64,000 bases of DNA from Bernardetiaceae bacterium (GTDB lineage: Bacteria > Bacteroidota > Bacteroidia > Cytophagales > Bernardetiaceae): assembly GCA_036822015.1 (NCBI GenBank), contig DAISIL010000002.1, positions 11,268 through 75,267 of the forward strand. The letters are read 5' to 3'. Below the pieces are notes generated by a model that had not been told where the DNA came from, made no database searches, and worked only from the letters and a program-made list of their open reading frames with translations. Below, piece by piece: positions 1-48,208 of this stretch (position 1 is the first letter of the stretch; each line of letters begins with the position of its first letter). A program made the position numbers and the translations under genes.

Positions 1-404
1 TGGAACAAGACATTCGATGGAAGCAAAGATTTGATAGTTTTGAGCGTGCCTTAGTTCAATTAGAAAAAGGTATTGCGTACTACCAAACCAACCCCATAGA
101 CCTGGTTAAAGAAGGCATTATACAACGATTTGAGTTTACACATGAGTTGTCCTGGAAAGTGATGAAAGATTTTTTAGAGTACGAAGGTGTAACGGGAATC
201 ATCGCCTCCCGAAGTGCTACCAAAGAAGCCTTTAACAAAAACCTAATCACTGACGGGCAAGGGTGGATGAATATGATTGATAGCAGAAACAATACCGTAC
301 ATACCTACAATCCTGATATTTTGGAAAGGGAGTTTTTGAAAATCATTACCACCTACTTTGATTTACTAAAAGAATTTCATCAAAAAATGAAAAGCTACTT
401 ATGA
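1..404 (+). CDS. HEPN-domain nucleotidyltransferase substrate-binding protein (HI0074 family, toxin-like); 5' end lies outside the window (reading frame begins at nt 3)
   Basis: Translation EQDIRWKQRFDSFERALVQLEKGIAYYQ...GIIQRFEFTHELSWKVMKDFLEYEG...DSRNNTVHTYNP matches the HI0074/TIGR01987 HEPN pattern (QRFEFTxELxWK...RNxxxHTY). The ORF runs to the window edge with no upstream stop. Confidence 0.75.
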   Translation, partial: EQDIRWKQRFDSFERALVQLEKGIAYYQTNPIDLVKEGIIQRFEFTHELSWKVMKDFLEYEGVTGIIASRSATKEAFNKNLITDGQGWMNMIDSRNNTVHTYNPDILEREFLKIITTYFDLLKEFHQKMKSYL

Positions 405-706
405 TGGACTTCGGACTAGACCCCACCACGGTTGCCAACATCCGGTCGGTATTTGCCAAATATCCCGAGATCGAACAAGTGTGGATATACGGATCCAGAG
501 CCAAAGGTAATTACAGGGCAGGCAGCGATATAGACCTCACCCTAAAAGGCGATCAACTCACGGATAACATTCGTTCAAAAGTTTGGTTGGATATAGATGC
601 CCTCCATACGCCATATCTATTCGACATCTCTGTTTTCAAAGACATCAACTCCCTTAGCTTAATCGAGCACATCAACCGCGTGGGTAAGGTGTTTTATGAA
701 AAATGA
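401..706 (+). CDS. Minimal nucleotidyltransferase (MNT, HI0073 family; antitoxin-like partner of HEPN)
   Basis: YGSRAKGNYRAGSDIDL is the GS-x10-DxD minimal nucleotidyltransferase signature. The gene overlaps the HEPN gene by 4 nt (ATGA). Confidence 0.8.
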   Translation: MMDFGLDPTTVANIRSVFAKYPEIEQVWIYGSRAKGNYRAGSDIDLTLKGDQLTDNIRSKVWLDIDALHTPYLFDISVFKDINSLSLIEHINRVGKVFYEK

Positions 707-1682
707 TTTTGTTATGCTCCTTGAGATGGAGAAATACAAAAAACAGTTATCAAAACTCCGCAGAGATAACAAGTTTGGGGGCGCGCCTCATAAGCCCATC
801 CTGCTTATCAGTATTATTGATGCTTTTGATAGCGGCTTCCTTGATTCTCAAATTATCCCCATTAGTCCAGAGCTATTATCGCTTTTCAGAAGTAACTGGA
901 AAAACTACGTTGAGACACCGCATGATTGCCGTTTTGCGCTGCCATTTTATCACATGAAATCAGAACCCTTCTGGAGGCTAGTTCCGAATGAGGGATGCAA
1001 AATTTGGGTTGAGTCTAAATCTTCGATGCAAAGTTTCAATAATCTTATTACGGCAGTAGCATACGCTGAAATTGAGAAAGGTTTGGCTAACCTTTTTTTA
1101 GAGACAAAAACACGTCAGGATTTGAGAGATTTTTTAGTAGCTCTTTACTTTGGTAAAACATCTTCTAATTACCCTGATCTATATGCGCTTGAAAATGTCA
1201 GAAAAGATATTCTGAAAGAGACCTCGGAGGCATATGCCTCTAAGTTGAAATATCTGAAAGAGACCTTATCTCCCGAAGATTACGAAGAGGAGCTATTCGT
1301 GAGAGGAAGTTTATTTAAACGAGAGGTTCCCAAAATCTATAATTTTACTTGTGCCGTTTCTGGGTTGAGGGTGGATACGACTTTTAGTATTTCCATGTTG
1401 GATGCCTGCCACATTGTTCCGTTTAGTGTGAGGGGAGATGATACCATCGGAAACGGTATAGCTCTTTGCCCAAACCTTCACCGAGCGTTTGATAGAGGGA
1501 TCATAACGCTGGATTTCAGTGATTTGCGTGTGAGAACCTCCAAAAGGTTTTCAGAACCACAGGCCGTAAGCTACTCAATCAAACAATTTGAAGGAAAAGA
1601 GATAAAATCTCCCGAGCAGATCAACCTTGAAGTTTTTAGAGCGAATCTGGCATGGCACAACGAAAATGTCTTTATCGGTTGA
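696..1682 (+). CDS. HNH endonuclease-family protein with an uncharacterised ~200-aa N-terminal domain (restriction-like nuclease)
   Basis: C-terminal HNH motif CHIVPFSVRGDDTIGNGIALCPNLHRAFDRG. N-terminal segment GAPHKPILLISIIDAFDSG resembles HNH_2-type restriction proteins. Overlaps the MNT gene by 11 nt. Low GC. Confidence 0.65.
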   Translation: MKNDFVMLLEMEKYKKQLSKLRRDNKFGGAPHKPILLISIIDAFDSGFLDSQIIPISPELLSLFRSNWKNYVETPHDCRFALPFYHMKSEPFWRLVPNEGCKIWVESKSSMQSFNNLITAVAYAEIEKGLANLFLETKTRQDLRDFLVALYFGKTSSNYPDLYALENVRKDILKETSEAYASKLKYLKETLSPEDYEEELFVRGSLFKREVPKIYNFTCAVSGLRVDTTFSISMLDACHIVPFSVRGDDTIGNGIALCPNLHRAFDRGIITLDFSDLRVRTSKRFSEPQAVSYSIKQFEGKEIKSPEQINLEVFRANLAWHNENVFIG

Positions 1683-1714
1683 GATGTCCGTTTAGATGCC
1701 ATCGTAAAGCCAAT

Positions 1715-2794
1715 CTAGTCCCCTAACACCACCCGCCACATATCCTCCTCGCTGTTGTAGAGGTGGGGGGAGATGCGCAGGCAGTCGCCGCGTAGGGAGA
1801 CATGCACACCTGCAGCGGTAAGGGCTTCGTAGGTGCGGGCGGCGCGGGTGGGGTCGCTGGGGTCATGGATGCCAAAGAGGTGGTAGGCGTGCTGCTCTGG
1901 CAAGTGCCAGCCCTGGGCTTGTAGGGCAGCCAGGGGGGCTTCACTGATGCGGCGGCAGTGGGACTGGATGGCAGCCGGCGTAACGGACTGGATCAGATCG
2001 AGGGAGGTGCGTAGCATCGGGACAAGCTGGAAGTTGCTCTGCTCCCCGACATCATAACGCCGAGCCAGGGGTTCGTACGCCGAGACGTACTGGCTCAAAC
2101 CCGCAAACTGACTCGCGCCCAGGCGGTTCATCCAACTCTCTTCGATGGGACGGCCCCCATCAAAAGCCGGACCGTAGTAGGCCAGCCCCAGGGAGTAGGG
2201 CCCCAGCAACCACTTATAGCCCGCCACCACCAGGGCATCCGGCTCCAGGGCAGCTACTGAAAGGGGTAAAGCCCCCACCGACTGCGTCCCGTCCAGAACG
2301 AGCAAAGCACCCACGGCGCGGCTACGCGCCCGCAAGGCCACCAGATCGGGGCAGTAGCCATCCGACCAATGCACCGTCCCGAGGGCGACAACTTTTGTCC
2401 GAGCGTCGATGGACTCGAGGAGCTGTGCCGCCGGCACCCGACGTATGGCAGCATAGACCGCCCAAGGATAAACATTGCTCGGAAACTGCTCATCAGCGAT
2501 CAAGACCTCATCGCCAGGTGCCCAGGGAACGTTTTGGGCGGCATTGGCGATGCCATAAGAGACCGAAGGAATAAGGGCAATACGTTGCCAATCAGGGGTA
2601 TCAATGAGACGGGCAAAACTTTTTTTGAGGGCCTCTACCCCTGCAAAAAAATCATCGCCCGTGATCTGTTGTGGCTGGCTGCGGGCCAGAAGTGCTTGCT
2701 GCCCAGCTTCGAGGGTGGCTTTGGGGAGCAGTCCCATGCGGGCGGCATTGAGATAAATCCCCGTTTGGGGCAAGACAAAATCGACTTTGGTCAT
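1715..2794 (-). CDS. Class V aminotransferase-fold PLP-dependent enzyme (cysteine desulfurase/aminotransferase-like)
   Basis: Length and architecture fit the family. GYKWLLGP contains the PLP-lysine context. GC rises sharply relative to the upstream island. Confidence 0.7.
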   Translation of the reverse strand: MTKVDFVLPQTGIYLNAARMGLLPKATLEAGQQALLARSQPQQITGDDFFAGVEALKKSFARLIDTPDWQRIALIPSVSYGIANAAQNVPWAPGDEVLIADEQFPSNVYPWAVYAAIRRVPAAQLLESIDARTKVVALGTVHWSDGYCPDLVALRARSRAVGALLVLDGTQSVGALPLSVAALEPDALVVAGYKWLLGPYSLGLAYYGPAFDGGRPIEESWMNRLGASQFAGLSQYVSAYEPLARRYDVGEQSNFQLVPMLRTSLDLIQSVTPAAIQSHCRRISEAPLAALQAQGWHLPEQHAYHLFGIHDPSDPTRAARTYEALTAAGVHVSLRGDCLRISPHLYNSEEDMWRVVLGD

Positions 2795-40070: not shown

Positions 40071-40772
40071 TTATCCCATCGCGGCCGCAATCGTGGCTAG
40101 GCTTACTTTGGCGGCCTGGGCGTTGAGGGCCGCCTGGGCGCAGCTTTCAAGGGTAGCCCCTGTTGTCAGGACATCATCCACGATCAGGAGGTGTTTATCG
40201 GCAACCAAATCTGGCTTGGGCACAACAAACAGCCCTTGTGTGGTGGCAAAGCGGTGCAGGCGATCTTTTTTGGTTTGGCTTTCGAGGTGTGCCGTACGTA
40301 GGAGCAGATCGGGCATCCAGGGGATGCCGAGCCGCTCGGATAGCCCCTGGGCGAAGCCATCGCTTTGGTTATAGCCCCTGATTTTGCGCTTGGTCGGGTG
40401 GAGTGGCACGGGAGCGATAAGGTCTATGGATTGGGGTAAATCTGTGGTAGCCAATACATTTCCATACCATTGCCCGAGTAGGAGCGCGATCTCGGGATGA
40501 TTGTTGTACTTGAGTTGGTGGAGTAAATGTTGTACATTGGTTTTGCGCCGAAAGTAGAGGTACGATTGCGCCCGCCAGATAGGAACACGCCCCACGAAAC
40601 GCTGCCAGATTTCGTTTTCGGGGTGTGTGTGGTGATCCGTAACGGGCAGAGTCAGTCGGCAGGTAGTACAGATCAGGGCTTCATTGCGCTCGATGCCTGC
40701 CTCGCAAGAGAGGCAAAAGGCAGGAAACAGCAGATGGACAAAATCGTTGAGCCAGGTTTGCGACCAGTTCAT
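40071..40772 (-). CDS. ComF-family protein (phosphoribosyltransferase-domain, ComFC-like)
   Basis: N-terminal zinc-finger-like CLSCEA...CTTC. C-terminal PRTase motif LLIVDDVLTTGATL. Confidence 0.6.
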   Translation of the reverse strand: MNWSQTWLNDFVHLLFPAFCLSCEAGIERNEALICTTCRLTLPVTDHHTHPENEIWQRFVGRVPIWRAQSYLYFRRKTNVQHLLHQLKYNNHPEIALLLGQWYGNVLATTDLPQSIDLIAPVPLHPTKRKIRGYNQSDGFAQGLSERLGIPWMPDLLLRTAHLESQTKKDRLHRFATTQGLFVVPKPDLVADKHLLIVDDVLTTGATLESCAQAALNAQAAKVSLATIAAAMG

Positions 40773-40830
40773 GGGAGAAAAGCACGTTTTGTTTAGAGAA
40801 ATATACAAAAAAAGTCTAACTTTGTCGGCA

Positions 40831-41769
40831 ATGGAGCAGATTCTGATTTCTGTGGTCAGTCCCGTGTATCGTGCCGAGCAGATCATAGATTTGCTGGTAC
40901 AGCGCATCAGCACCGAACTCGAACAGATCACGCCACACTTCGAGATCATCCTGGTAGAGGACGGCAGCCCTGACGGCTCCTGGCAAAAAATCGCCGAAAA
41001 CTGCCAACGCGATCCGCGCGTTAAGGGCATCAAGTTAAGCCGAAATTTTGGGCAGCATTATGCCATTACGGCGGGTCTGACCGCAGCCCGAGGGGAGATA
41101 ACCATCCTGATGGACTGTGATTTACAGGATGATCCGGCGCACATTCATCGCTTGCTTGCCGAGCAGCAAAAGGGCTACGAAATTGTATTTACGAAACGGA
41201 TCAAGCGTAAGCACTCTTTTTTTAAGGCAATTACGGCAAAGATATACAACGCTTTGTTTTTATTGTTTTCCGATAAGAAATATGACATTAACGTAGGTTC
41301 GCTGGTGCTATTTACCAAGAAAGTACGACAGCATTTTGTGCGCATCAAAGACAAAGATCGTTTGTACATTCAAATTTTGAAATGGTTGGGTTTTGCTCAC
41401 ACCTACATCTATGTAGAGCATCGCGAAAGAGCCGAAGGTGTATCTACCTACTCCTTTTTGAAGCTCCTAAAAATTGCCGTTCAGGGTTGGACATCTCATT
41501 CGGATAAACTGCTCCGTTTGTCCATCTATCTGGGATTTTTCTTATCCTTTCTGTCTTTTTTGGGGATATTCTTGATCGTAACGCTTTATTTTTGGCAGGG
41601 ATTTCAGTCAGGGTGGGCTAGCCTGGCAGTCCTGAACTTATTTTCTACGGGAATTATTCTGATCTGTATTGGCATTGCGGGTTTGTATATCGGTAAGACT
41701 TTTGAGCAGTCAAAGCATAAGCCTTTGTTTATCATAGATGAAGTATTAAATACAAAAATAGATGACTAA
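40831..41769 (+). CDS. GT2-family polyprenyl-phosphate sugar transferase (GtrB/ArnC/DPM1-like) with two C-terminal TM helices
   Basis: ISVVSPVYRAEQ...IILVEDGSPDGS...LMDCDLQDDP are the GT2 DXD-region motifs. C-terminal hydrophobic pair LSIYLGFFLSFLSFLGIFLIV and ILICIGIAGLYIG. Confidence 0.75.
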   Translation: MEQILISVVSPVYRAEQIIDLLVQRISTELEQITPHFEIILVEDGSPDGSWQKIAENCQRDPRVKGIKLSRNFGQHYAITAGLTAARGEITILMDCDLQDDPAHIHRLLAEQQKGYEIVFTKRIKRKHSFFKAITAKIYNALFLLFSDKKYDINVGSLVLFTKKVRQHFVRIKDKDRLYIQILKWLGFAHTYIYVEHRERAEGVSTYSFLKLLKIAVQGWTSHSDKLLRLSIYLGFFLSFLSFLGIFLIVTLYFWQGFQSGWASLAVLNLFSTGIILICIGIAGLYIGKTFEQSKHKPLFIIDEVLNTKIDD

Positions 41770-42454
41770 AAAAATAATTATTACACAGTCTAATTACATT
41801 CCTTGGAAGGGCTATTTTGATGCCATCCAGTACGTCGATGAAGTAATTCTTTATGATGATATGCAATACACCAAACGCGACTGGCGCAACCGCAACCAAA
41901 TCAAGACTCCACAAGGATTGCTTTGGTTGAGTATTCCAGTAGCGGTGAAGGGGAAATACTTTCAAGCCATCCAGGATACACAGGTGAGCGATCTCGGATG
42001 GGCCAGCAAGCACTGGAAAACGATCCAAGCCAATTACGCCAAAGCAAAATTTTTTAAAGATTATCAAGACATCTTCGAGGATTTATACTTAGATTGCCGA
42101 GAAAGCTATTTGAGCCAAGTCAATTTGCGTTTTATTCTGGGTATCAACAAGATGTTGGGCATCACAACACCGATACGCTTCTCGTCAGATTTTGTACTTG
42201 TTGAGGGCAAAACAGAACGTCTCGTAGATTTGTGCAAGCGGGTAGATGCCACCGATTACTACACCGGTAGTGCCGCCCAAAACTACATGGACGAATCCCT
42301 CTTTACGCAAGAAAACATTCGGGTACATTACTGGGACTACGCTGGCTATCCCGAGTACGAACAGCTATACCCACCTTTTGCGCATAATGTGTCTATCATT
42401 GATTTGATCTTGAACCAAGGAGAAAACAGCAGAAATTTTATGAAGTATTTGTAG
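41762..42454 (+). CDS. WbqC-family protein (LPS/O-antigen biosynthesis-associated, function unknown)
   Basis: IITQSNYIPWKGYFDAIQYVDEVILYDDMQYTKRDWRNRNQI is the characteristic WbqC N-terminus. Low GC. Overlaps the upstream gene by 8 nt. Confidence 0.6.
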   Translation: MTKKIIITQSNYIPWKGYFDAIQYVDEVILYDDMQYTKRDWRNRNQIKTPQGLLWLSIPVAVKGKYFQAIQDTQVSDLGWASKHWKTIQANYAKAKFFKDYQDIFEDLYLDCRESYLSQVNLRFILGINKMLGITTPIRFSSDFVLVEGKTERLVDLCKRVDATDYYTGSAAQNYMDESLFTQENIRVHYWDYAGYPEYEQLYPPFAHNVSIIDLILNQGENSRNFMKYL

Positions 42455-42458
42455 ATGT

Positions 42459-43091
42459 ATGGAAAAGCAACAAATCATCCGATCAGTAGCCGACTATTAC
42501 ACGGAAAAGCTCGCAGAACACGGCCCTACGCCAAGAGGGGTCGATTGGAACTCGGCAGATTCCCAGGAGCTTCGTTTTCGGCAACTCTTACAAGTGATCT
42601 CTGATGCTACTTCAACGACCTCTATCCTGGATTATGGCTGTGGCTTTGGTGCTATGTTTTCATTTATAGAGCAACACTTATCGAAAAACATACGCTTTTT
42701 TGGGTATGATATTTCCAAAAATATGATTCAGCAGGCAGAAAAACTTTATGGGGATCGGACGAATGCCATTTGGCTATCCGAGTTGAAAAATCAGGAAAAG
42801 ATGGATTATCTCGTATCGAGTGGGATTTTTAACGTTCGTCTGCAACACCAAAACACGGATTGGAAAGCCTACATTCTCGATGTTTTGCACCAATTTGACC
42901 AGTTGAGTACCAAAGGATTTGCATTTAATATGCTGACTGCCTATTCAGATAAGCCGTATATGAAGGATTATTTGTATTATGCTGATCCTATGTTTTTCTT
43001 TGATTACTGTAAGCAAAATTTTTCTCCTTATGTAGCCTTACTTCACGATTATCCACTTTATGAATTTACAATTTTAGTAAGAAAACAATAA
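42459..43091 (+). CDS. SAM-dependent methyltransferase (class I)
   Basis: ILDYGCGFGAM is the SAM-binding motif I. Low GC. Confidence 0.55.
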   Translation: MEKQQIIRSVADYYTEKLAEHGPTPRGVDWNSADSQELRFRQLLQVISDATSTTSILDYGCGFGAMFSFIEQHLSKNIRFFGYDISKNMIQQAEKLYGDRTNAIWLSELKNQEKMDYLVSSGIFNVRLQHQNTDWKAYILDVLHQFDQLSTKGFAFNMLTAYSDKPYMKDYLYYADPMFFFDYCKQNFSPYVALLHDYPLYEFTILVRKQ

Positions 43092-43858
43092 TGAATATCA
43101 TTGCTTGCATCGATCATCAGATAGGCTATAGGTTAGCCGTCCAGTTGATTCAACTACAAAAATTAGGGGAAATAACTAACTTATGGTTATACACCAACCC
43201 AAGGCCAGCAGAAGCATTCTGGGATGATTGTTTTTACTTAAAAGAAGTATATACTTTTGAAAATATATTTGCTTTTAATAACGATCAAGAAATAATAAAG
43301 CATACAAAAAATTATGTTATTGATTATATATTTTTGTTGTCATGGAAGCATTTGGTGTCAAAGGAACTTATAGAACATTCGCAAAAAGGTTGTATCAATC
43401 TTCATTACAGCCTTTTGCCAAAATTTCGCGGGGTTTATCCTGTTAATTGGGCGATTATCAACGGAGAAAAAGAGACAGGTCTTACTTTTCACTTTGTGAA
43501 TCAAGGCATAGATGCAGGTGATATTATTTTGCAAAGAAAACTAAGTATATCACTTACCGAAACAGCTAAGTGCCTACTCGAGCGATTAGATGATTTAGCT
43601 GAACAGGCATTTAGGGAGTTGTGGGATATGATAAAGTCATACCAGACCTTACCACGAAGACCACAAACCATTGTTGCGGATTACTATTCAAGAAAACGAT
43701 TCTTGCAAATCTGTCAGCTATCTTTAACAGAAACTGTTACTGGTGGGGAGTTGCTAAACCTCTTACGTGGAACAACCTTCGGTGCGCAATCAAATCTCTA
43801 TTTTCTCGACGAAAAACAGCAGAAAGTGTATATCACGATTCAATTTCACCCAGAATAA
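43091..43858 (+). CDS. Formyltransferase (sugar N-formyltransferase-like, Formyl_trans_N family)
   Basis: INLHYSLLPKFRGVYPVNWAIINGEKETGLTFHFVNQGIDAGDII contains the formyltransferase catalytic motif (H-x-SLLP-x-x-RG ... N ... D). Too short to be Fmt/PurN with their extra domains, and sits in sugar-modification context. Confidence 0.7.
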   Translation: MNIIACIDHQIGYRLAVQLIQLQKLGEITNLWLYTNPRPAEAFWDDCFYLKEVYTFENIFAFNNDQEIIKHTKNYVIDYIFLLSWKHLVSKELIEHSQKGCINLHYSLLPKFRGVYPVNWAIINGEKETGLTFHFVNQGIDAGDIILQRKLSISLTETAKCLLERLDDLAEQAFRELWDMIKSYQTLPRRPQTIVADYYSRKRFLQICQLSLTETVTGGELLNLLRGTTFGAQSNLYFLDEKQQKVYITIQFHPE

Positions 43859-44691
43859 TGGCTGATACGATGCAATACATCGACAACATCAAGTGCTACG
43901 CCCCAGAGCTAGCCCATGCCAACGCAGATTACCCTGTCGAGGCTTTTGAGGAACTGTATAAAATTGAAACAGAAAATTTCTGGTTTTTTTCCCGTAATGC
44001 CGTTTTGCAGCATCTGTTCAAAAAATATCTCGGCACAGATCAGAAACATATCCTCGAGATCGGCTGTGGGACGGGCTTTGTACTGCATGGCTTATCCCAG
44101 AAGTTTCCCAACTATGTGCTTTCAGGATCGGAGATACACGTAGCTGGGATACATTTTGCTCAAAAACGCTTGCCCGAGGTTGAGTTTGTGCAGTTGGATG
44201 CTACCCGGATGCCATTTACGGATACTTTTGATGCCGTGGGCGCTTTTGATGTATTGGAGCATATTGAAGAAGATGTTCAGGTAATGAAAGAAGTTCAGAA
44301 GTCTTTAAAAAAAGAGGGTTTATTTTTTATTTCCGTTCCTCAATATCAGTGGATGTGGAGCATCGCCGATGATGTTGCCTATCACAAACGCCGCTACACG
44401 CGCCAGATGCTCGGTACACGCCTCCGCGAAGCGGGCTTTGAGGTGCTATACATGGGGTCTTTTGTGGCCACGCTTTTCCCGCTCATGTATGCCTCACGTC
44501 TGCTCAAGCGCAGGCACACAGGTAAGCTCACCGAAGCCGAGGCAAGGGCTTTATCCATGCAAGAATTGCAACTTTCACCAACACTCAATGCTATTTTGCG
44601 CCAACTGATGCGCATAGATGAGGGGTTGATTAAGAAAAATGTATCTTTACCCTTTGGTGGCTCGTTGCTTGCCGTAGCCCGAAAAAAATAA
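43858..44691 (+). CDS. Class I SAM-dependent methyltransferase
   Basis: ILEIGCGTGF motif I, and FDAVGAFDVLEHI motif. ATG at 43858 overlaps the upstream stop (TAATG). Confidence 0.65.
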   Translation: MADTMQYIDNIKCYAPELAHANADYPVEAFEELYKIETENFWFFSRNAVLQHLFKKYLGTDQKHILEIGCGTGFVLHGLSQKFPNYVLSGSEIHVAGIHFAQKRLPEVEFVQLDATRMPFTDTFDAVGAFDVLEHIEEDVQVMKEVQKSLKKEGLFFISVPQYQWMWSIADDVAYHKRRYTRQMLGTRLREAGFEVLYMGSFVATLFPLMYASRLLKRRHTGKLTEAEARALSMQELQLSPTLNAILRQLMRIDEGLIKKNVSLPFGGSLLAVARKK

Positions 44692-44712
44692 AAAACTATT
44701 GATCGACTGCTT

Positions 44713-45846
44713 ATGAACGTTCCCTTTAATCTCCCCTACATGACCGGACGGGAGTCCGAGTATATCCAGGCGGCCGTCGCCTCCGGCAAAATTTCGGGGG
44801 ACGGGGTATTTACCCACAAGTGTCATGCGTTTTTTGAGCAGCGTTACAGTTTTCCCAAGTGCCTCCTGACGACCTCCTGCACCGATGCGCTCGAGATGTG
44901 CGCCCTGCTCCTGGATATCAAGTCCGGCGACGAGGTCATTGCCCCGAGTTATACCTTTGTCAGTACCGTTAATGCTTTCGTTCTACGGGGTGCAAAAATT
45001 GTCTTTGCTGATAGCGAAGCCAACACGCCCAATATGGATATTTCAAAAATTGAATCTTTGATTACGCCGCGTACGAAGGTAATCGTTGTTGTGCATTATG
45101 CCGGTGTGGCTTGTGATATGGATGCCGTGATGGCACTGGCTGAGCGGTATGGTTTGTTTGTGGTGGAGGATGCAGCCCAGGCAGTAGATAGTTTTTACAA
45201 GGATCGTCCGTTGGGGAGCATAGGACATCTGGCGGCTTTTTCGTTCCACGAAACCAAAAATATCATCAGCGGAGAAGGTGGAATGCTGGTCGTCAATGAT
45301 GAACAATTCGCCAAACGCGCCGAAATTATCCGCGAAAAAGGGACAAATCGCAGTGCTTTTTTTCGGGGAGAGGTGGACAAATACGGCTGGGTGGATGTAG
45401 GTTCTTCCTTTTTGCCTTCGGATATTATTGCTGCTTTTCTTTTTGCACAACTCGAAAATCTTGCTGATATTCAGGCATGTAGAAAGCAAATCTGGCAGCG
45501 TTATTACGAGGCGTTCAGACCTTTGGCAGAGCAGGGACACCTCCGTTTGCCGCACTTACCCGACTACGCCCACAACAACGGGCATCTGTTCTTTGTCCTC
45601 TGCCGAGACCTCGAAGAACGGACGGCACTCATACAGCACCTCAAGGCAGCGGGCATCTGGGCCGTTTTTCATTATCTGGCTTTGCATCAGTCGCCGTTTT
45701 ACAAAGACCAGCATGACGGCCGGACGCTGCCCTACTGTGAGCAGTACGCGGACGGATTGGTACGGCTGCCACTTTTTTATCAAATCACGGAAGCGCAGCA
45801 GTCCAGGGTCATAGATGCTGTCTATGAATTTTTTGATAAAAAATGA
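44713..45846 (+). CDS. DegT/DnrJ/EryC1-family sugar aminotransferase, WecE-like (dTDP-4-keto-6-deoxyhexose 4-aminotransferase)
   Basis: Near end-to-end motif identity with E. coli WecE: PSYTFVSTVNAFVLRGAKIVF, VHYAGVACDMD, FVVEDAAQA, FSFHETKN, REKGTNRS-FFRG-VDKY-W-D-GSS, VFHY-LH. Confidence 0.85.
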   Translation: MNVPFNLPYMTGRESEYIQAAVASGKISGDGVFTHKCHAFFEQRYSFPKCLLTTSCTDALEMCALLLDIKSGDEVIAPSYTFVSTVNAFVLRGAKIVFADSEANTPNMDISKIESLITPRTKVIVVVHYAGVACDMDAVMALAERYGLFVVEDAAQAVDSFYKDRPLGSIGHLAAFSFHETKNIISGEGGMLVVNDEQFAKRAEIIREKGTNRSAFFRGEVDKYGWVDVGSSFLPSDIIAAFLFAQLENLADIQACRKQIWQRYYEAFRPLAEQGHLRLPHLPDYAHNNGHLFFVLCRDLEERTALIQHLKAAGIWAVFHYLALHQSPFYKDQHDGRTLPYCEQYADGLVRLPLFYQITEAQQSRVIDAVYEFFDKK

Positions 45847-47777
45847 TACTCATGGCGTTTTTAGAAAATTATTTCTTTTTTGTTGTAACTTTATCTTTCT
45901 TTTATTTTATTGGAGCTTTGCCCGCCTGGCTTTACCGCCGATTTATTCCGCACCAGATGGCGGATATTTTTACGGCGCTTGTTCTGGGGCAGGGGATTTT
46001 GGTTACGGGCTATGCCTTGTTCAAGACCGAAGGACAGACGATGTTTGTGTTGGCTGTGCCGTTTTTGTGGTGGGCATATCGCGTATGGCTTCTCCAGGAA
46101 CGCCCATTTAGCGGCTCCTCTAGCCGATGGACGATTCCTTTGCTGCTTTTGTTTTCTTTGGTTGTTTATGGCTGGGAGGCTTTCTTTTTTCTTGATGAAG
46201 CAGGGGCAGGACAGATAGTTTTTACAGATTTAAATTTTTATGCGCGTGTAGCCAATGCCATGCGTCTGGTCGGCTTGGAAAGCATCAAAGCACAGTTTTA
46301 TTTCCTAGATCCGACGCTTAGCCCGGGCATTGACTTGTATCACTTTTACGAACTATGGCTAACTGCTTTATCCATAGATATTTGGAATCTGCCCCCAAAC
46401 TATGCTTATCTCTTGGTGGCCATGCCGAGCATTTATTTTATTTCGTTGCTGGGGCTTTACGCGCTCCTGGAGTGCTATGCTGCGGAGGTGAAGCCCTGGC
46501 TATTTGCTGGCTTGGCGATTTTGTTGTTGTTCGTAAAAGGTATTCATTTTGATTTTTATGAATCCAACCGATTGATGCAATATTCCACGTACCTGTTGTA
46601 CGAACAACTGCTCTGGAAAAAAGTATCCGTTTATCAGCCCTTGATACTACTGGCCATGATTTGGTTCAGCCGTCGCAATTTCAAGCAAGGGTTGATATTG
46701 CTTTTTTTATTACCGATCTATGCCATCACCACTTTTCCAGCAATTTCGGGCGCGGCCCTGATCTTGTGGTTGGCTTTGTGGTACTGGCGACGGCTATCCC
46801 TCCGGCAGATGCTCTGGGGCATAGGAGCGGTAGGTTTGTATCTGTTTGTTTTTTTGCTTTGGTATCAAGAACTAAAAACAGTATCCTCCCTTACGCCTAA
46901 AACAGCACTAGATACACTTTTCCAATTTGATTTGGGGACACTCAAAACGAAAGTTTCATTTTTTGTCGGGACGCTCATCAAAACCGTACTACTTTATCTG
47001 CCTTTTTTCCTCATTCCCTTACTTTGGGTTCGACCGTATGCACTCGTGAAGGCACATAAGGAGACTTGGCTTTGGTTGGTTGGGCTGTTTGCGAGTGGAT
47101 TGCTTACCTGGGCGATACTCTACGGTATGGATCAGGTCCGGCAGCTACATCTACACACGGCCGCCATTGCCTGGATGCTTGCTGCGGCCCTGACTGCCAT
47201 GCACGTCTGGGAAAGCCAACGTGGAAGATGGGCTTTTTTGGTAGTCTTTGTAGGTTTAGCTATGTTTAATGTTTATGATAGTTTCCAAAAACAACGTTAC
47301 TTTATTCAGTCAGAGACGCTTAGATACACTACAGATTATCTCCTACAAATCAAAACCAGCCTGCCTCAAAACCGACTTTGTTATGGGGTGTCGATCACTG
47401 CTCCGGAAGAGTATCCTCGGCTCAAGCAGGGCTATACACCACACATGATGCAGCGCGGCGAGTATCTGAGCAACTTTTACACCCAAACGATGACCTATCA
47501 GATGGATAACTTTCTGGAGGCAATGAAATATGTACCCAACTACCGCACCCAGGATTTGCTTTATTTGCCTTTTTATCGCTTCGTTGAACGCCAAAAAGCG
47601 GCTGGTACTTTTCTGGACATCCCGAGCAGCCAGGCGGACTTTTTTTTGACGCATAAGTTTGACTATCTCATTGCTTCTCCCGAGGCTGTTGTCCCGAAAG
47701 CTATCCGCCAAAGGGCTAAGCGCGTCCTGACCGATCCCAAAAGTGGTGAACGTTTTTTTATCTTTGTCCCGCTATGA
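45843..47777 (+). CDS. Large polytopic membrane protein, candidate GT-C-type glycosyltransferase (ArnT/GtrC/PMT-like) - uncharacterised
   Basis: About 12 hydrophobic helices over the first ~470 aa and a ~170-aa soluble C-terminal domain. Sits at the end of a GtrB/ArnC-like GT2 operon. No motif-level confirmation is possible by eye. Confidence 0.5.
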   Translation: MILMAFLENYFFFVVTLSFFYFIGALPAWLYRRFIPHQMADIFTALVLGQGILVTGYALFKTEGQTMFVLAVPFLWWAYRVWLLQERPFSGSSSRWTIPLLLLFSLVVYGWEAFFFLDEAGAGQIVFTDLNFYARVANAMRLVGLESIKAQFYFLDPTLSPGIDLYHFYELWLTALSIDIWNLPPNYAYLLVAMPSIYFISLLGLYALLECYAAEVKPWLFAGLAILLLFVKGIHFDFYESNRLMQYSTYLLYEQLLWKKVSVYQPLILLAMIWFSRRNFKQGLILLFLLPIYAITTFPAISGAALILWLALWYWRRLSLRQMLWGIGAVGLYLFVFLLWYQELKTVSSLTPKTALDTLFQFDLGTLKTKVSFFVGTLIKTVLLYLPFFLIPLLWVRPYALVKAHKETWLWLVGLFASGLLTWAILYGMDQVRQLHLHTAAIAWMLAAALTAMHVWESQRGRWAFLVVFVGLAMFNVYDSFQKQRYFIQSETLRYTTDYLLQIKTSLPQNRLCYGVSITAPEEYPRLKQGYTPHMMQRGEYLSNFYTQTMTYQMDNFLEAMKYVPNYRTQDLLYLPFYRFVERQKAAGTFLDIPSSQADFFLTHKFDYLIASPEAVVPKAIRQRAKRVLTDPKSGERFFIFVPL

Positions 47778-48208
47778 AATCTATCGCCATCATCAACGGG
47801 CCCAACCTCAACCTGCTGGGCATCCGCGAGCCGGAGCTATACGGCAAACGCGGTTTTTTACATTTTTTAGAAGAACTCCAAGCGGAGTTTGGACAGGTTG
47901 CCATCGACTACTTTCAGTCCAATATCGAGGGAGAACTGATCGACCATTTGCATCGGGTGGGCTTTACGGCAGATGCCATCTTGTTCAATGCCGGTGGATA
48001 TACGCATACCTCGGTTGCTTTGCGGGATGCGGTTTCGGCGATTTCGGCGCCGGTCTTGGAGGTTCACCTGACACAGATTTACGCTCGGGAAACGTTCCGC
48101 CATCGGAGCTTTCTCTCGCCCGTCTGTGTGGGAAGTATCTCTGGGCTGGGGCTAGAGGGCTATCGCCTGGGGCTCCTGTATTTCGTTCGGCAATGGGAAA
48201 CGCCTTGA
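47774..48208 (+). CDS. aroQ: Type II 3-dehydroquinate dehydratase
   Basis: IAIINGPNLNLLGIREPELYG N-terminus and HLHRVG...NAGGYTHTS motifs. Overlaps the upstream gene by 4 nt. Confidence 0.9.
   Translation: MKSIAIINGPNLNLLGIREPELYGKRGFLHFLEELQAEFGQVAIDYFQSNIEGELIDHLHRVGFTADAILFNAGGYTHTSVALRDAVSAISAPVLEVHLTQIYARETFRHRSFLSPVCVGSISGLGLEGYRLGLLYFVRQWETP

What the first reader, a model, noticed from the sequence alone, without database searches (positions are those of the whole stretch)
1..1682. Low-GC island with an overlapping HEPN(HI0074) - MNT(HI0073) - HNH nuclease three-gene cassette
The first 1.7 kb is markedly AT-richer (~40% GC by eye) than the flanking chromosome (~60% GC from nt 1715 on). 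It carries three genes with overlapping stop/start codons (ATGA at 401-404, and an 11-nt overlap at 696-706). HEPN/MNT pairs are known toxin-antitoxin or abortive-infection modules. Here a third gene follows, encoding an HNH nuclease whose ~200-aa N-terminal domain (GAPHKPILLISIIDAFDSG...) resembles the modification-sensing domains of type IV restriction-like enzymes. The arrangement suggests a composite anti-phage defence unit rather than a plain TA pair. The cassette continues upstream of the window, so further partners such as a methyltransferase or helicase may have been cut off.
Basis: partly seen in the sequence, partly recalled or inferred. Interest (0 to 1): 0.6.

Follow-up and report, generated by a model that had tools for sequence, protein, structure and literature searches.

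The report
Toxin-antitoxin pair beside sulfur-sensing DNA nuclease
A 1.7-kb foreign-looking DNA islet in a Bernardetiaceae genome carries two already-known bacterial defence modules side by side, an RNase toxin with its antidote and a nuclease that senses sulfur-modified DNA; they are not a new three-gene system.

Summary
Window 1-1682 has three intact same-strand genes at 40.7% GC, against 52.6% for the rest of the window (not ~60%). Gene 1 is an HI0074-family HEPN RNase with RX4HXY. Gene 2 is a minimal nucleotidyltransferase (MNT) with GSX10DXD. Their closest solved relative is the Legionella type VII HEPN-MNT toxin-antitoxin pair. Gene 3 is a two-domain nuclease. Its N-terminus is a sulfur-binding domain (SBD) that recognises phosphorothioate (PT) DNA: TM 0.86 to SBD-Hga, with all five sulfur-cavity residues kept. 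Its C-terminus is an HNH nuclease, the architecture of the SprMcrA/EcoWI type IV PT-dependent restriction enzymes.

The "composite unit" reading is not supported. No HI0074-type HEPN-MNT pair lies next to any of 80 genomic SBD-HNH homologues. None of 80 metagenomic HEPN-MNT loci, nor the closest relatives on either side, carries an SBD-HNH gene. The idea of cut-off upstream partners is refuted: an identical contig shows the window lacks only the A of the HEPN start codon, and a host gene ends 12 nt upstream.

Side note: 34 of 80 homologues of gene 3 sit directly downstream of DndC. The verdict is an ordinary mini defence islet made of two known modules.

The parts
1..404 (+). HEPN toxin gene, HI0074 / NTase_sub_bind family, 134 aa. 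The A of its ATG lies one base before the window.
   Evidence: Pfam PF08780 scores 138 bits against a cutoff of 31.8. TIGR01987 scores 97 bits against 55.8. The closest PDB entry is 8xdj, the Legionella HEPN toxin, at E 4e-36. The full gene is visible in L001 at 566-970.
285..308 (+). RX4HXY motif (R96-NNTV-H101-T-Y103). Y103 is the predicted AMP-acceptor tyrosine.
   Evidence: Read directly from the sequence. It aligns with R98/H103/Y105 of the Legionella HEPN (PMC11586414). R96, H101 and Y103 are invariant in 30 homologues. The Q42/E45 pair matches the Legionella Mg2+ site Q44/E47.
401..706 (+). MNT antitoxin gene, a minimal Pol-beta-type nucleotidyltransferase of 101 aa. Its start overlaps the HEPN stop (ATGA).
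   Evidence: Pfam Polbeta PF18765 scores 57 bits against 26.9, and NTP_transf_2 scores 29.7 against 21. PDB 8xeh, the Legionella MNT, matches at E 3e-16. An MNT gene lies directly downstream of HEPN in 75 of 80 homologous loci.
491..535 (+). GSX10DXD catalytic motif of MNT (G31-S32 ... D43-I-D45).
   Evidence: Read directly from the translation. The motif is defined in PMC11586414.
714..1682 (+). SBD-HNH nuclease gene, 322 aa from the ATG at 714. The alternative ATG at 696 gives 328 aa.
   Evidence: NCBIfam NF045808 'phosphorothioated DNA-binding restriction endonuclease' aligns over the full length at 103 bits, below its 180-bit cutoff. PADLOC HNH matches at 8e-17 and mREase_IV at 7e-5. The AF2 model has pLDDT 82.8. 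There are 3233 homologues, which the sources name 'putative restriction endonuclease' or 'HNH endonuclease'.
714..1150 (+). Sulfur-binding domain (SBD, a winged-helix fold). The PT-sulfur cavity residues are H26-K27 (nt 789-794) and L76-P77-x-x-H80 (nt 939-953).
   Evidence: phmmer against PDB 8h0l (SBD-Hga) gives E 1.3e-7. Foldseek gives TM 0.86 and rmsd 1.8 A to 8h0l, and also matches SprMcrA 7ccd and ScoMcrA 5zmm. The cavity residues H25/K26/L75/P76/H79 of SBD-Hga (PMC10602919) all align with identical residues here. They are invariant or nearly invariant in the family.
1350..1514 (+). HNH (beta-beta-alpha-metal) nuclease core. It contains D230, H233, N247, N254 and H256, and the cysteines C213, C232 and C252.
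   Evidence: Pfam HNH_2 PF13391 scores 45.9 bits against 21. It aligns with the HNH domains of ScoMcrA and E. coli McrA. The residues are conserved in 80 homologues.
1683..1714 (.). Right boundary of the islet. This is a 32-nt spacer before the convergent host gene (class V aminotransferase fold, 1715-2794, minus strand, GC 0.62).
   Evidence: GC rises from 0.45 to 0.60-0.65 across this point. No terminator-like hairpin and no flanking direct repeat were found.

Best explanation
A roughly 1.7-kb horizontally acquired low-GC islet sits between a host CHU_C (type IX secretion) protein gene and a host aminotransferase-fold gene. The genome is a Bernardetiaceae (Cytophagales) MAG. The islet holds two independent, already-known modules in tandem, and they are probably read as one transcript.

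Module 1 is an HI0074/HI0073-class HEPN-MNT toxin-antitoxin pair (type VII), closest to the Legionella pneumophila pair. By inference from that pair, the HEPN dimer is an RNase that shuts down translation. The MNT uses ATP to AMPylate the tyrosine of RX4HXY (Y103) and also binds the toxin, which keeps it inactive until MNT is lost or inhibited.

Module 2 is a two-domain SBD-HNH nuclease. The N-terminal winged-helix sulfur-binding domain would insert the Rp sulfur of a phosphorothioate DNA linkage into a hydrophobic cavity formed by H26, K27, L76, P77 and H80. The C-terminal HNH domain would then cut nearby. This would restrict incoming PT-modified DNA, as SprMcrA and EcoWI do (type IV restriction).

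Shown here: the domain identities, the intact catalytic and binding residues, the islet boundaries, and the lack of conserved linkage between the two modules. Inferred: all enzymatic activities, co-transcription, and the polarity of PT sensing. The toxin-antitoxin pair may incidentally stabilise the islet, but no dedicated three-component mechanism is needed.
For: -
- The sulfur-cavity and HNH residues are conserved.
- The HEPN RX4HXY motif and Q/E metal site, and the MNT GSX10DXD motif, are conserved.
- Linkage tests:
  - None of 80 SBD-HNH loci has an HI0074-type HEPN.
  - None of 80 HEPN loci has an SBD-HNH gene, while 75 of 80 have MNT directly downstream.
  - The closest HEPN-MNT relatives (75-79% identity) are solitary pairs inserted between unrelated housekeeping genes, with the same 4-nt overlap.
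  - The closest SBD-HNH relatives are solitary.
- HEPN has relatives at 79% identity, whereas SBD-HNH has none above 54%. This is consistent with separate histories.
- Other solitary SBD-HNH homologues lie among defence-type genes such as ThsB-TIR, Cap4 nuclease, SLFN-like helicases, STAND NTPases and ResIII helicases. This is the usual defence-island pattern.
- Characterised SBD-HNH enzymes cleave PT-DNA and restrict dnd+ plasmids (PMC7461809; PMC6224610).
Against: - The three genes are packed very tightly: a 4-nt overlap, then either an 11-nt overlap or a 7-nt gap. They share low GC, and there is no internal promoter-like or terminator-like site. They therefore behave physically as one operon, which leaves room for functional coupling.
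- In this particular SBD-HNH subfamily, 34 of 80 members lie directly downstream of DndC, inside PT-modification clusters. A simple 'cuts PT-DNA' role would be self-destructive there. The polarity of PT sensing in this subfamily is therefore not settled.
- ORF3 scores below the NCBIfam cutoff for the PT-restriction model (103 against 180 bits).
- Nothing here is experimental.
- Only 64 kb of the host genome could be checked for dnd genes.
Confidence: 0.7

Rival explanations
1. One reading: HEPN, MNT and SBD-HNH form one dedicated three-component anti-phage system. For example, the nuclease senses modified phage DNA and the HEPN RNase acts as its abortive-infection effector or backup, under MNT control.
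For: Gene spacing is operon-like and all three genes share low GC. There is one candidate Bacteroidota-type -7 box upstream of HEPN and none internally. The Aravind-lab survey notes HEPN and PIN RNases at the edges of Dnd/PT loci as possible backup effectors (PMC10853773).
Against: The arrangement was found only in this organism. None of 80 SBD-HNH loci has an HI0074-type HEPN, and none of 80 HEPN-MNT loci has an SBD-HNH gene. The nearest relatives of each module are solitary. Both modules are known to work autonomously elsewhere (PMC11586414, PMC7461809). The TAnnTTTG count in the locus is not above chance.
Confidence: 0.08
2. ORF3 is not a type IV enzyme that attacks PT-DNA. It is instead the restriction partner of a Dnd phosphorothioation system encoded elsewhere in this genome. 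In this view it uses PT on host DNA as a self mark, as SspE and DndI do, and attacks unmodified invaders.
For: 34 of 80 homologues lie immediately downstream of a bona fide DndC (391-402 bits against a 290-bit cutoff). They are often followed by a DndE-HerA/FtsK fusion. The DndC-linked members are scattered across the family tree. Sulfur-cavity and HNH residues are equally conserved in linked and unlinked members. The literature proposes that such nucleases are alternative restriction components of Dnd systems (PMC10853773) and documents PT-sensing mechanisms for SspE and DndI (PMC11662687).
Against: No dndC, dndE or associated ATPase homologue is present in the 64-kb window (best E 0.19). 46 of 80 homologues, and the nearest relatives of ORF3, have no DndC nearby. 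Several sit beside decayed DndC fragments, which shows the nuclease is tolerated without the modification genes. Every biochemically characterised SBD-HNH enzyme cleaves PT-modified DNA.
Confidence: 0.2
3. The islet is a decaying, non-functional remnant of a larger mobile element or defence island.
For: No mobility gene, att-like repeat or tRNA lies at the borders. The islet is very small. DndC remnants next to homologues show that such loci do erode.
Against: All three ORFs are intact and of family-typical length, with every catalytic and binding residue preserved. The product sequences are recorded on two or three contigs of public assemblies: a 183-kb contig, an 85.8-kb contig and the Logan contig L001.
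Confidence: 0.04

Closest known systems
Legionella pneumophila HEPN-MNT type VII toxin-antitoxin module (PDB 8XDJ, 8XEH; PMC11586414)
   Same: The HEPN belongs to the HI0074/NTase_sub_bind family (E 4e-36). It carries RX4HXY and the Q/E Mg2+ site. The MNT is short, about 100 aa, with GSX10DXD (E 3e-16). The two genes are adjacent.
   Different: Identity is only moderate. No activity has been tested here. In this locus a nuclease gene follows directly on the same strand.
Haemophilus influenzae HI0073/HI0074 pair, and Shewanella HepT/MntA (DUF86-type, PMC7641770)
   Same: The two-gene logic is the same: an MNT nucleotidyltransferase neutralises a HEPN RNase.
   Different: The match to HI0074 itself is only E 3e-8, and to HI0073 only 0.024. 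The NCBIfam HepT_toxin and MntA_antitoxin equivalog cutoffs are not met (13 and 31 bits against 60). It therefore belongs to the HI0074 class, not the DUF86 HepT class. The HEPN-then-MNT gene order seen here is conserved in this subfamily (75 of 80 loci).
SBD-HNH phosphorothioate-dependent type IV restriction endonucleases SprMcrA and EcoWI (PMC7470945, PMC7461809, PMC9521924)
   Same: It has the same two-domain architecture, an N-terminal sulfur-binding domain and a C-terminal HNH with no SRA domain. The sulfur-cavity His-Lys and Pro residues are conserved. The gene is solitary, with no adjacent dnd genes in this genome window.
   Different: Sequence similarity is low. The Foldseek match to the SprMcrA SBD is TM 0.6 at 14% identity. 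The SBD is closest to SBD-Hga. The subfamily is mostly from Bacteroidota and falls below the NCBIfam NF045808 cutoff. Nearly half of its members are embedded in dnd clusters, unlike the less than 3.6% reported for previously studied SBD-HNH enzymes.
Hga from Hahella ganghwensis (SBD + PD-(D/E)XK; PDB 8H0L; PMC10602919)
   Same: This is the best structural and sequence match for the N-terminal domain (TM 0.86, rmsd 1.8 A). All five cavity residues are identical (H, K, L, P, H), including the small Leu in place of Tyr that is linked to sequence-promiscuous PT binding.
   Different: The nuclease domain differs: HNH here, PD-(D/E)XK in Hga.
ScoMcrA (SBD-SRA-HNH) and the wHTH+SAD+HNH nucleases of Dnd loci (PMC6224610, PMC10853773)
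   Same: Both share the SBD fold and an HNH nuclease. The family association with Dnd modification genes is also shared.
   Different: ORF3 has no SRA/SAD domain. An all-helical linker (residues about 131-208) joins the SBD and HNH domains.

Membership tests
HI0074/HI0073-class HEPN-MNT (type VII) toxin-antitoxin | The toxin is a HEPN domain of the NTase_sub_bind / TIGR01987 family, scoring above the curated cutoffs. | tested here: met
   PF08780 scores 138.1 bits against 31.8. TIGR01987 scores 97.1 against 55.8.
HI0074/HI0073-class HEPN-MNT (type VII) toxin-antitoxin | An RX4HXY motif with the acceptor tyrosine, plus the Q/E metal site of the Legionella enzyme. | tested here: met
   R96-NNTV-H101-T-Y103 and Q42/E45 align with R98/H103/Y105 and Q44/E47 of 8xdj. 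They are invariant in 30 homologues.
HI0074/HI0073-class HEPN-MNT (type VII) toxin-antitoxin | An adjacent minimal nucleotidyltransferase with GSX10DXD. | tested here: met
   Polbeta scores 57.4 bits against 26.9. G31-S32-X10-D43-I-D45 is present. The genes overlap by 4 nt. The pairing is conserved in 75 of 80 loci.
HI0074/HI0073-class HEPN-MNT (type VII) toxin-antitoxin | The toxin arrests growth, and MNT neutralises it by AMPylating the tyrosine. | not testable with these tools
   This needs expression, toxicity and mass-spectrometry assays.
HepT/MntA (DUF86-type) type VII TA, NCBIfam equivalogs | Scores above the cutoffs of NF047751 (HepT_toxin) and NF047752 (MntA_antitoxin). | tested here: not met
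   The scores are 13.3 and 31.4 bits against cutoffs of 60. The pair works like HepT/MntA but is not a member of that equivalog.
SBD-HNH phosphorothioate-dependent type IV restriction endonuclease | An N-terminal sulfur-binding-domain fold. | tested here: met
   Foldseek to 8h0l gives TM 0.86 and rmsd 1.8 A, with further matches to 7ccd and 5zmm. phmmer gives E 1.3e-7.
SBD-HNH phosphorothioate-dependent type IV restriction endonuclease | The sulfur-cavity residues: His, then Lys or Arg, then a hydrophobic residue followed by Pro (H116/R117/Y164/P165 in ScoMcrA; H25/K26/L75/P76/H79 in Hga). | tested here: met
   H26, K27, L76, P77 and H80 are aligned and identical to Hga. H26 is kept in 79 of 80 homologues, K27 in 79 of 80, and P77 in 80 of 80.
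SBD-HNH phosphorothioate-dependent type IV restriction endonuclease | A C-terminal HNH nuclease with its catalytic His and Asn residues. | tested here: met
   HNH_2 scores 45.9 bits against 21. D230, H233, N247, N254 and H256 are conserved.
SBD-HNH phosphorothioate-dependent type IV restriction endonuclease | A score above the NCBIfam NF045808 (PT-DNA_restrict) cutoff. | tested here: not met
   The score is 103.3 bits against 180, although the alignment covers the full length (16-326 of the protein, 8-283 of 284 profile positions). This is a divergent subfamily.
SBD-HNH phosphorothioate-dependent type IV restriction endonuclease | Binds Rp-PT DNA, cleaves it, and restricts dnd+ DNA. | not testable with these tools
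   This needs EMSA, cleavage assays and transformation assays.
SBD-HNH phosphorothioate-dependent type IV restriction endonuclease | The host lacks a PT-modification system of matching specificity. | tested here: inconclusive
   No DndC, DndE or ATPase homologue is in the 64-kb window (best E 0.19). The rest of the genome was not available.
   None of 80 SBD-HNH loci has an HI0074-type HEPN, by tblastn or HMM. None of 80 HEPN loci has an SBD-HNH gene, and 53 of them have at least 1 kb beyond MNT. The nearest relatives are solitary. Both modules are essentially absent from viral contigs.
Dnd-embedded SBD-HNH nuclease (DndC / SBD-HNH / DndE-HerA/FtsK cluster) | Immediately adjacent DndC and DndE genes. 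| tested here: not met
   This holds for 34 of 80 homologues. In the window, the upstream genes are HEPN-MNT and the downstream gene is a host aminotransferase-fold gene.

The most novel reading that the evidence does not exclude
The juxtaposition is functional rather than accidental. In this reading the HEPN-MNT pair and the PT-sensing nuclease are co-transcribed as a self-stabilising cassette. The toxin-antitoxin pair supplies the addiction or abortive-infection function that a solitary type IV nuclease lacks, or it responds when the nuclease is inhibited by phage. This would be a recently formed two-layer defence operon. It would also be an example of how nucleases orphaned from dnd clusters are re-recruited.
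Probability: 0.1. Interest if true: 0.45.

Novelty: new member of a known kind. Interest (0 to 1): 0.2.

Why it matters
The direct importance is low. It adds one more small defence islet, built from two well-described modules, in an uncultured Bernardetiaceae genome.

It does correct the annotation. The public records call the third gene 'HNH endonuclease'. It is better described as a divergent SBD-HNH phosphorothioate-sensing nuclease. Its SBD cavity is like that of the sequence-promiscuous SBD-Hga, which is of some interest for PT-mapping and PT-targeting tools.

The more interesting point is a by-product of the survey. In this mostly Bacteroidota subfamily, about 40% of members sit inside dnd clusters, directly after dndC, with their sulfur-binding and nuclease residues intact. 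Others sit beside decayed dndC fragments. This bears on an open question: how PT-sensing nucleases avoid cutting the cell's own PT-modified DNA.

Tried and rejected
1. **Exact-protein look-up of the 328-aa ORF.** It found nothing. The 322-aa form, P0001, did, and gave L001.
2. **Extending the locus further upstream.** Only the 3.5-kb Logan contig is served. The 183-kb and 85.8-kb NCBI contigs could not be fetched.
3. **Empty-site test.** The nearest homologue of the flanking aminotransferase-fold gene is only 60% identical, and its neighbourhood is not syntenic. The test is uninformative.
4. **Signs of an insertion mechanism.** There are no convincing direct or inverted repeats at the borders and no integrase or transposase. 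The mode of insertion remains unknown.
5. **Sigma-70 promoter and intrinsic terminator scan.** Promoter-like sites are at chance level and there are no terminators. This consensus is not appropriate for Bacteroidota. The TAnnTTTG motif lies 25 nt before the HEPN ATG, but its count in the locus is not above chance.
6. **PADLOC.** There is no hit for HEPN. MNT gives only weak hits to candidate-system models (PDC-S09, PDC-M05A). ORF3 gives HNH and type IV REase hits. No multi-gene system model fits.
7. **Viral contigs.** There is one partial SBD-HNH hit and no HEPN hit, so there is no evidence of phage carriage.
8. **Is the adjacent class V aminotransferase-fold gene a DndA/IscS-like cysteine desulfurase?** Rejected. 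It scores 47 bits against cutoffs of 475-607, has host-like GC, and is convergent with the islet.
9. **Is there an SRA domain in ORF3?** Rejected. The linker is all-helical and no SRA hit was found.
Full report
**Observation**

Window 1-1682 contains three same-strand ORFs.
- The first runs in from the window edge to the TGA at 402-404.
- The second (401-706) starts inside ATGA at 401-404.
- The third runs to 1682 from the ATG at 696 (328 aa, 11-nt overlap with the MNT stop) or the ATG at 714 (322 aa, 7-nt gap).

One public gene call uses 714 (P0001), and homologues are 319-325 aa. PGAP uses 696 (P0121, identical sequence).

GC is 0.407 for the islet. Equal-sized windows over the rest of the window average 0.524 (sd 0.036), and only the second low-GC region near 42 kb is as low. 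GC3 is 0.41, 0.55 and 0.41 for the three genes, against 0.67-0.69 for the host neighbours.

**Boundaries**

An identical 3549-bp contig (L001, Logan SRR3311151) extends 566 nt upstream.
- The HEPN ATG begins one base before window position 1.
- 12 nt upstream, a GC-55% gene ends. It encodes a protein with a CHU_C type IX secretion sorting domain.
- On the right, 32 nt separate the ORF3 stop from a convergent host gene. That gene has a class V aminotransferase fold and is not a DndA/IscS-type desulfurase. An alternative GlmU follows it.

The islet therefore consists of exactly three genes, and nothing was cut off. No flanking repeats, mobility genes or terminators were found. The source annotations name the organism as a Bernardetiaceae MAG.

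**Genes 1 and 2**

Gene 1 is an HI0074/NTase_sub_bind HEPN protein. PF08780 scores 138 bits and TIGR01987 scores 97 bits, both above their cutoffs. Gene 2 is a minimal Pol-beta-type nucleotidyltransferase.

Their best solved relatives are the Legionella pneumophila HEPN toxin (E 4e-36) and its MNT (E 3e-16). That pair is a type VII toxin-antitoxin system. Its HEPN is a Mg2+-dependent RNase that degrades rRNA, and its MNT poly-AMPylates and binds the toxin (PMC11586414).

The window proteins keep the key residues.
- RX4HXY is present as R96, H101 and Y103.
- The Q/E metal site is present as Q42 and E45.
- GSX10DXD is present in MNT.

They do not reach the NCBIfam HepT/MntA equivalog cutoffs. 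They are therefore HI0074-class, not DUF86-class.

In 80 metagenomic loci encoding HEPN homologues (45-68% identity), MNT lies directly downstream in 75. The pair is a conserved two-gene module with HEPN-then-MNT order.

**Gene 3**

- The C-terminus is an HNH_2 nuclease.
- The whole protein aligns end to end with NCBIfam NF045808, 'phosphorothioated DNA-binding restriction endonuclease', but below its cutoff (103 against 180 bits).
- Residues 12-141 match the crystallised sulfur-binding domain of Hga (8h0l, E 1.3e-7).
- An AlphaFold2 model (pLDDT 82.8) superposes on 8h0l with TM 0.86 and rmsd 1.8 A. It also matches the SBDs of SprMcrA and ScoMcrA. The HNH part resembles the modification-dependent enzymes VcaM4I and TagI.
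- The five residues that form the sulfur cavity of SBD-Hga are H25, K26, L75, P76 and H79 (PMC10602919). They are identical in ORF3 (H26, K27, L76, P77, H80) and nearly invariant in the family.
- There is no SRA domain. The linker is helical.

More precisely, ORF3 is an SBD-HNH protein of SprMcrA/EcoWI architecture. All enzymes of this architecture characterised so far cleave PT-modified DNA and restrict dnd+ plasmids (PMC7461809, PMC6224610).

**Is it one system? Linkage tested in both directions**

Starting from SBD-HNH:
- 80 species-representative genomes encode homologues at 43-53% identity, fetched with 6-kb flanks.
- None has an HI0074-type HEPN nearby, by tblastn or profile HMM. MNT was also absent by tblastn.
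- The MNT profile found one locus (L008) with an unrelated MNT-type gene about 830 nt upstream, with no recognisable HEPN.

Starting from HEPN:
- None of the 80 loci carries an SBD-HNH gene. 53 of them have at least 1 kb of sequence beyond MNT.
- The closest HEPN relatives (75-79% identity) are solitary pairs with the same 4-nt overlap. They are inserted between unrelated housekeeping genes.

The closest SBD-HNH relatives (52% identity) are solitary or are preceded by an XRE-type HTH gene. Both modules are essentially absent from viral contigs.

The three-gene arrangement is therefore private to this lineage. The tight spacing, the shared low GC and the lack of internal promoter or terminator signals make a single transcript likely. 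That is physical linkage, not evidence of a dedicated mechanism.

**What the SBD-HNH family usually sits next to**

- In 34 of 80 loci the gene lies directly downstream of DndC or a remnant of it.
- The full-length DndC proteins that were scored pass the TIGR03183 cutoff, at 391-402 bits against 290.
- The gene is often followed by a HerA/FtsK-like ATPase, fused to DndE in some loci.
- DndC-linked members are scattered across the family tree. ORF3 sits on a long branch among solitary members.
- The binding and catalytic residues are equally conserved in linked and unlinked members.
- The remaining loci are rich in defence-type neighbours: TIR, Cap4, SLFN-like helicases, STAND NTPases and ResIII helicases.

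The literature already reports SBD(wHTH)+SAD+HNH nucleases in Dnd loci and DndE-HerA/FtsK fusions (PMC10853773). An earlier survey, however, found less than 3.6% of predicted PT-dependent SBD-HNH enzymes near dnd clusters (PMC7461809).

This leaves one real uncertainty: whether members of this subfamily attack PT-DNA or use PT as a self mark, as SspE and DndI do (PMC11662687). The window holds no dnd genes, but the rest of the genome could not be examined.

**Mechanism and verdict**

The best-supported reading (confidence about 0.7) is a small horizontally acquired defence islet with two autonomous, known modules.
- The first is a type VII HEPN-MNT toxin-antitoxin pair. Its RNase is held in check by AMPylation of Y103.
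- The second is a solitary SBD-HNH nuclease. It recognises the Rp sulfur of phosphorothioate linkages through the H26/K27/L76/P77/H80 cavity and cuts nearby DNA, which restricts PT-modified invaders.

The domain identities, the key residues, the boundaries and the non-conservation of linkage are shown here. The enzymatic activities, co-transcription and the polarity of PT sensing are inferred.

The rivals are:
- a true three-component system (about 0.08);
- a PT self-mark-sensing partner of a distant Dnd system (about 0.2);
- a decaying remnant (about 0.04).

Novelty is 'new member of a known kind', and interest is low (0.2). The most useful by-product is the strong dndC linkage, and its decay, in this SBD-HNH subfamily.

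Noticed in passing
L002-L081 (for example L002:4778-9299, L033:4629-9076, L006:3941-6236): In this SBD-HNH subfamily, 34 of 80 species-representative genomes have DndC directly upstream on the same strand. The two full-length DndC proteins scored (L002, L033) reach 391-402 bits against a 290-bit cutoff. A HerA/FtsK-like ATPase often follows, and in some loci it is fused to DndE. The sulfur-cavity and HNH residues are as conserved in these members as in solitary ones. An earlier survey reported less than 3.6% of SBD-HNH enzymes near dnd clusters, while the 2024 Aravind-lab paper reports related nucleases in Dnd loci.
   Followed up: partly
L010:5763-5900, L035:5874-5966, L044:5779-5907, L067:1612-1743, L005:5570-5950, L022:5574-5891, L064:5474-5977: Short DndC fragments of 31-174 aa lie immediately upstream of SBD-HNH genes. 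All of these genes except L067's, which has one in-frame stop, read through without a stop. This suggests repeated decay of the PT-modification gene while the nuclease is retained, and may be the route by which solitary copies like the one in the window arise.
   Followed up: partly
window 40500-48000: This is a second low-GC stretch, with a minimum of 0.38 near 42.3 kb. It encodes a polysaccharide or O-antigen-type biosynthesis cluster: a GT2 glycosyltransferase (40684-41769), WbqC (41762-42454), methyltransferases and a sugar N-formyltransferase (43091-43858). It is an ordinary horizontally mobile surface-glycan cluster.
   Followed up: partly
L008:1648-1938: This locus, from a Tangfeifania MAG, is the only SBD-HNH locus of 80 with any MNT-type nucleotidyltransferase nearby (96 aa, about 830 nt upstream). 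The small ORFs after it (1935-2280) could be a frameshifted HEPN partner, but they match no family.
   Followed up: partly
L001:534-541 (about 32 nt before window position 1): A TAACTTTG sequence matches the Bacteroidota TAnnTTTG -7 promoter box. It lies 25 nt upstream of the HEPN ATG, inside the 3' end of the host CHU_C gene, and is followed by an A-rich leader. There is no such motif on the plus strand before MNT or ORF3. The count in the locus is not above chance.
   Followed up: partly
window 1715-2794 (minus strand): The gene convergent with the nuclease has the class V aminotransferase (cysteine desulfurase-like) fold, the same superfamily as DndA, IscS and SspA. It scores far below every desulfurase cutoff (47 bits against 475-607) and has host-like GC. 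The proximity appears coincidental.
   Followed up: yes
L175:144-401: The closest SBD-HNH relative (P0002, 52% identity) is preceded, 30 nt upstream, by an 85-aa XRE-type HTH_3 gene. This may be a controller-like regulator of the nuclease.
   Followed up: no
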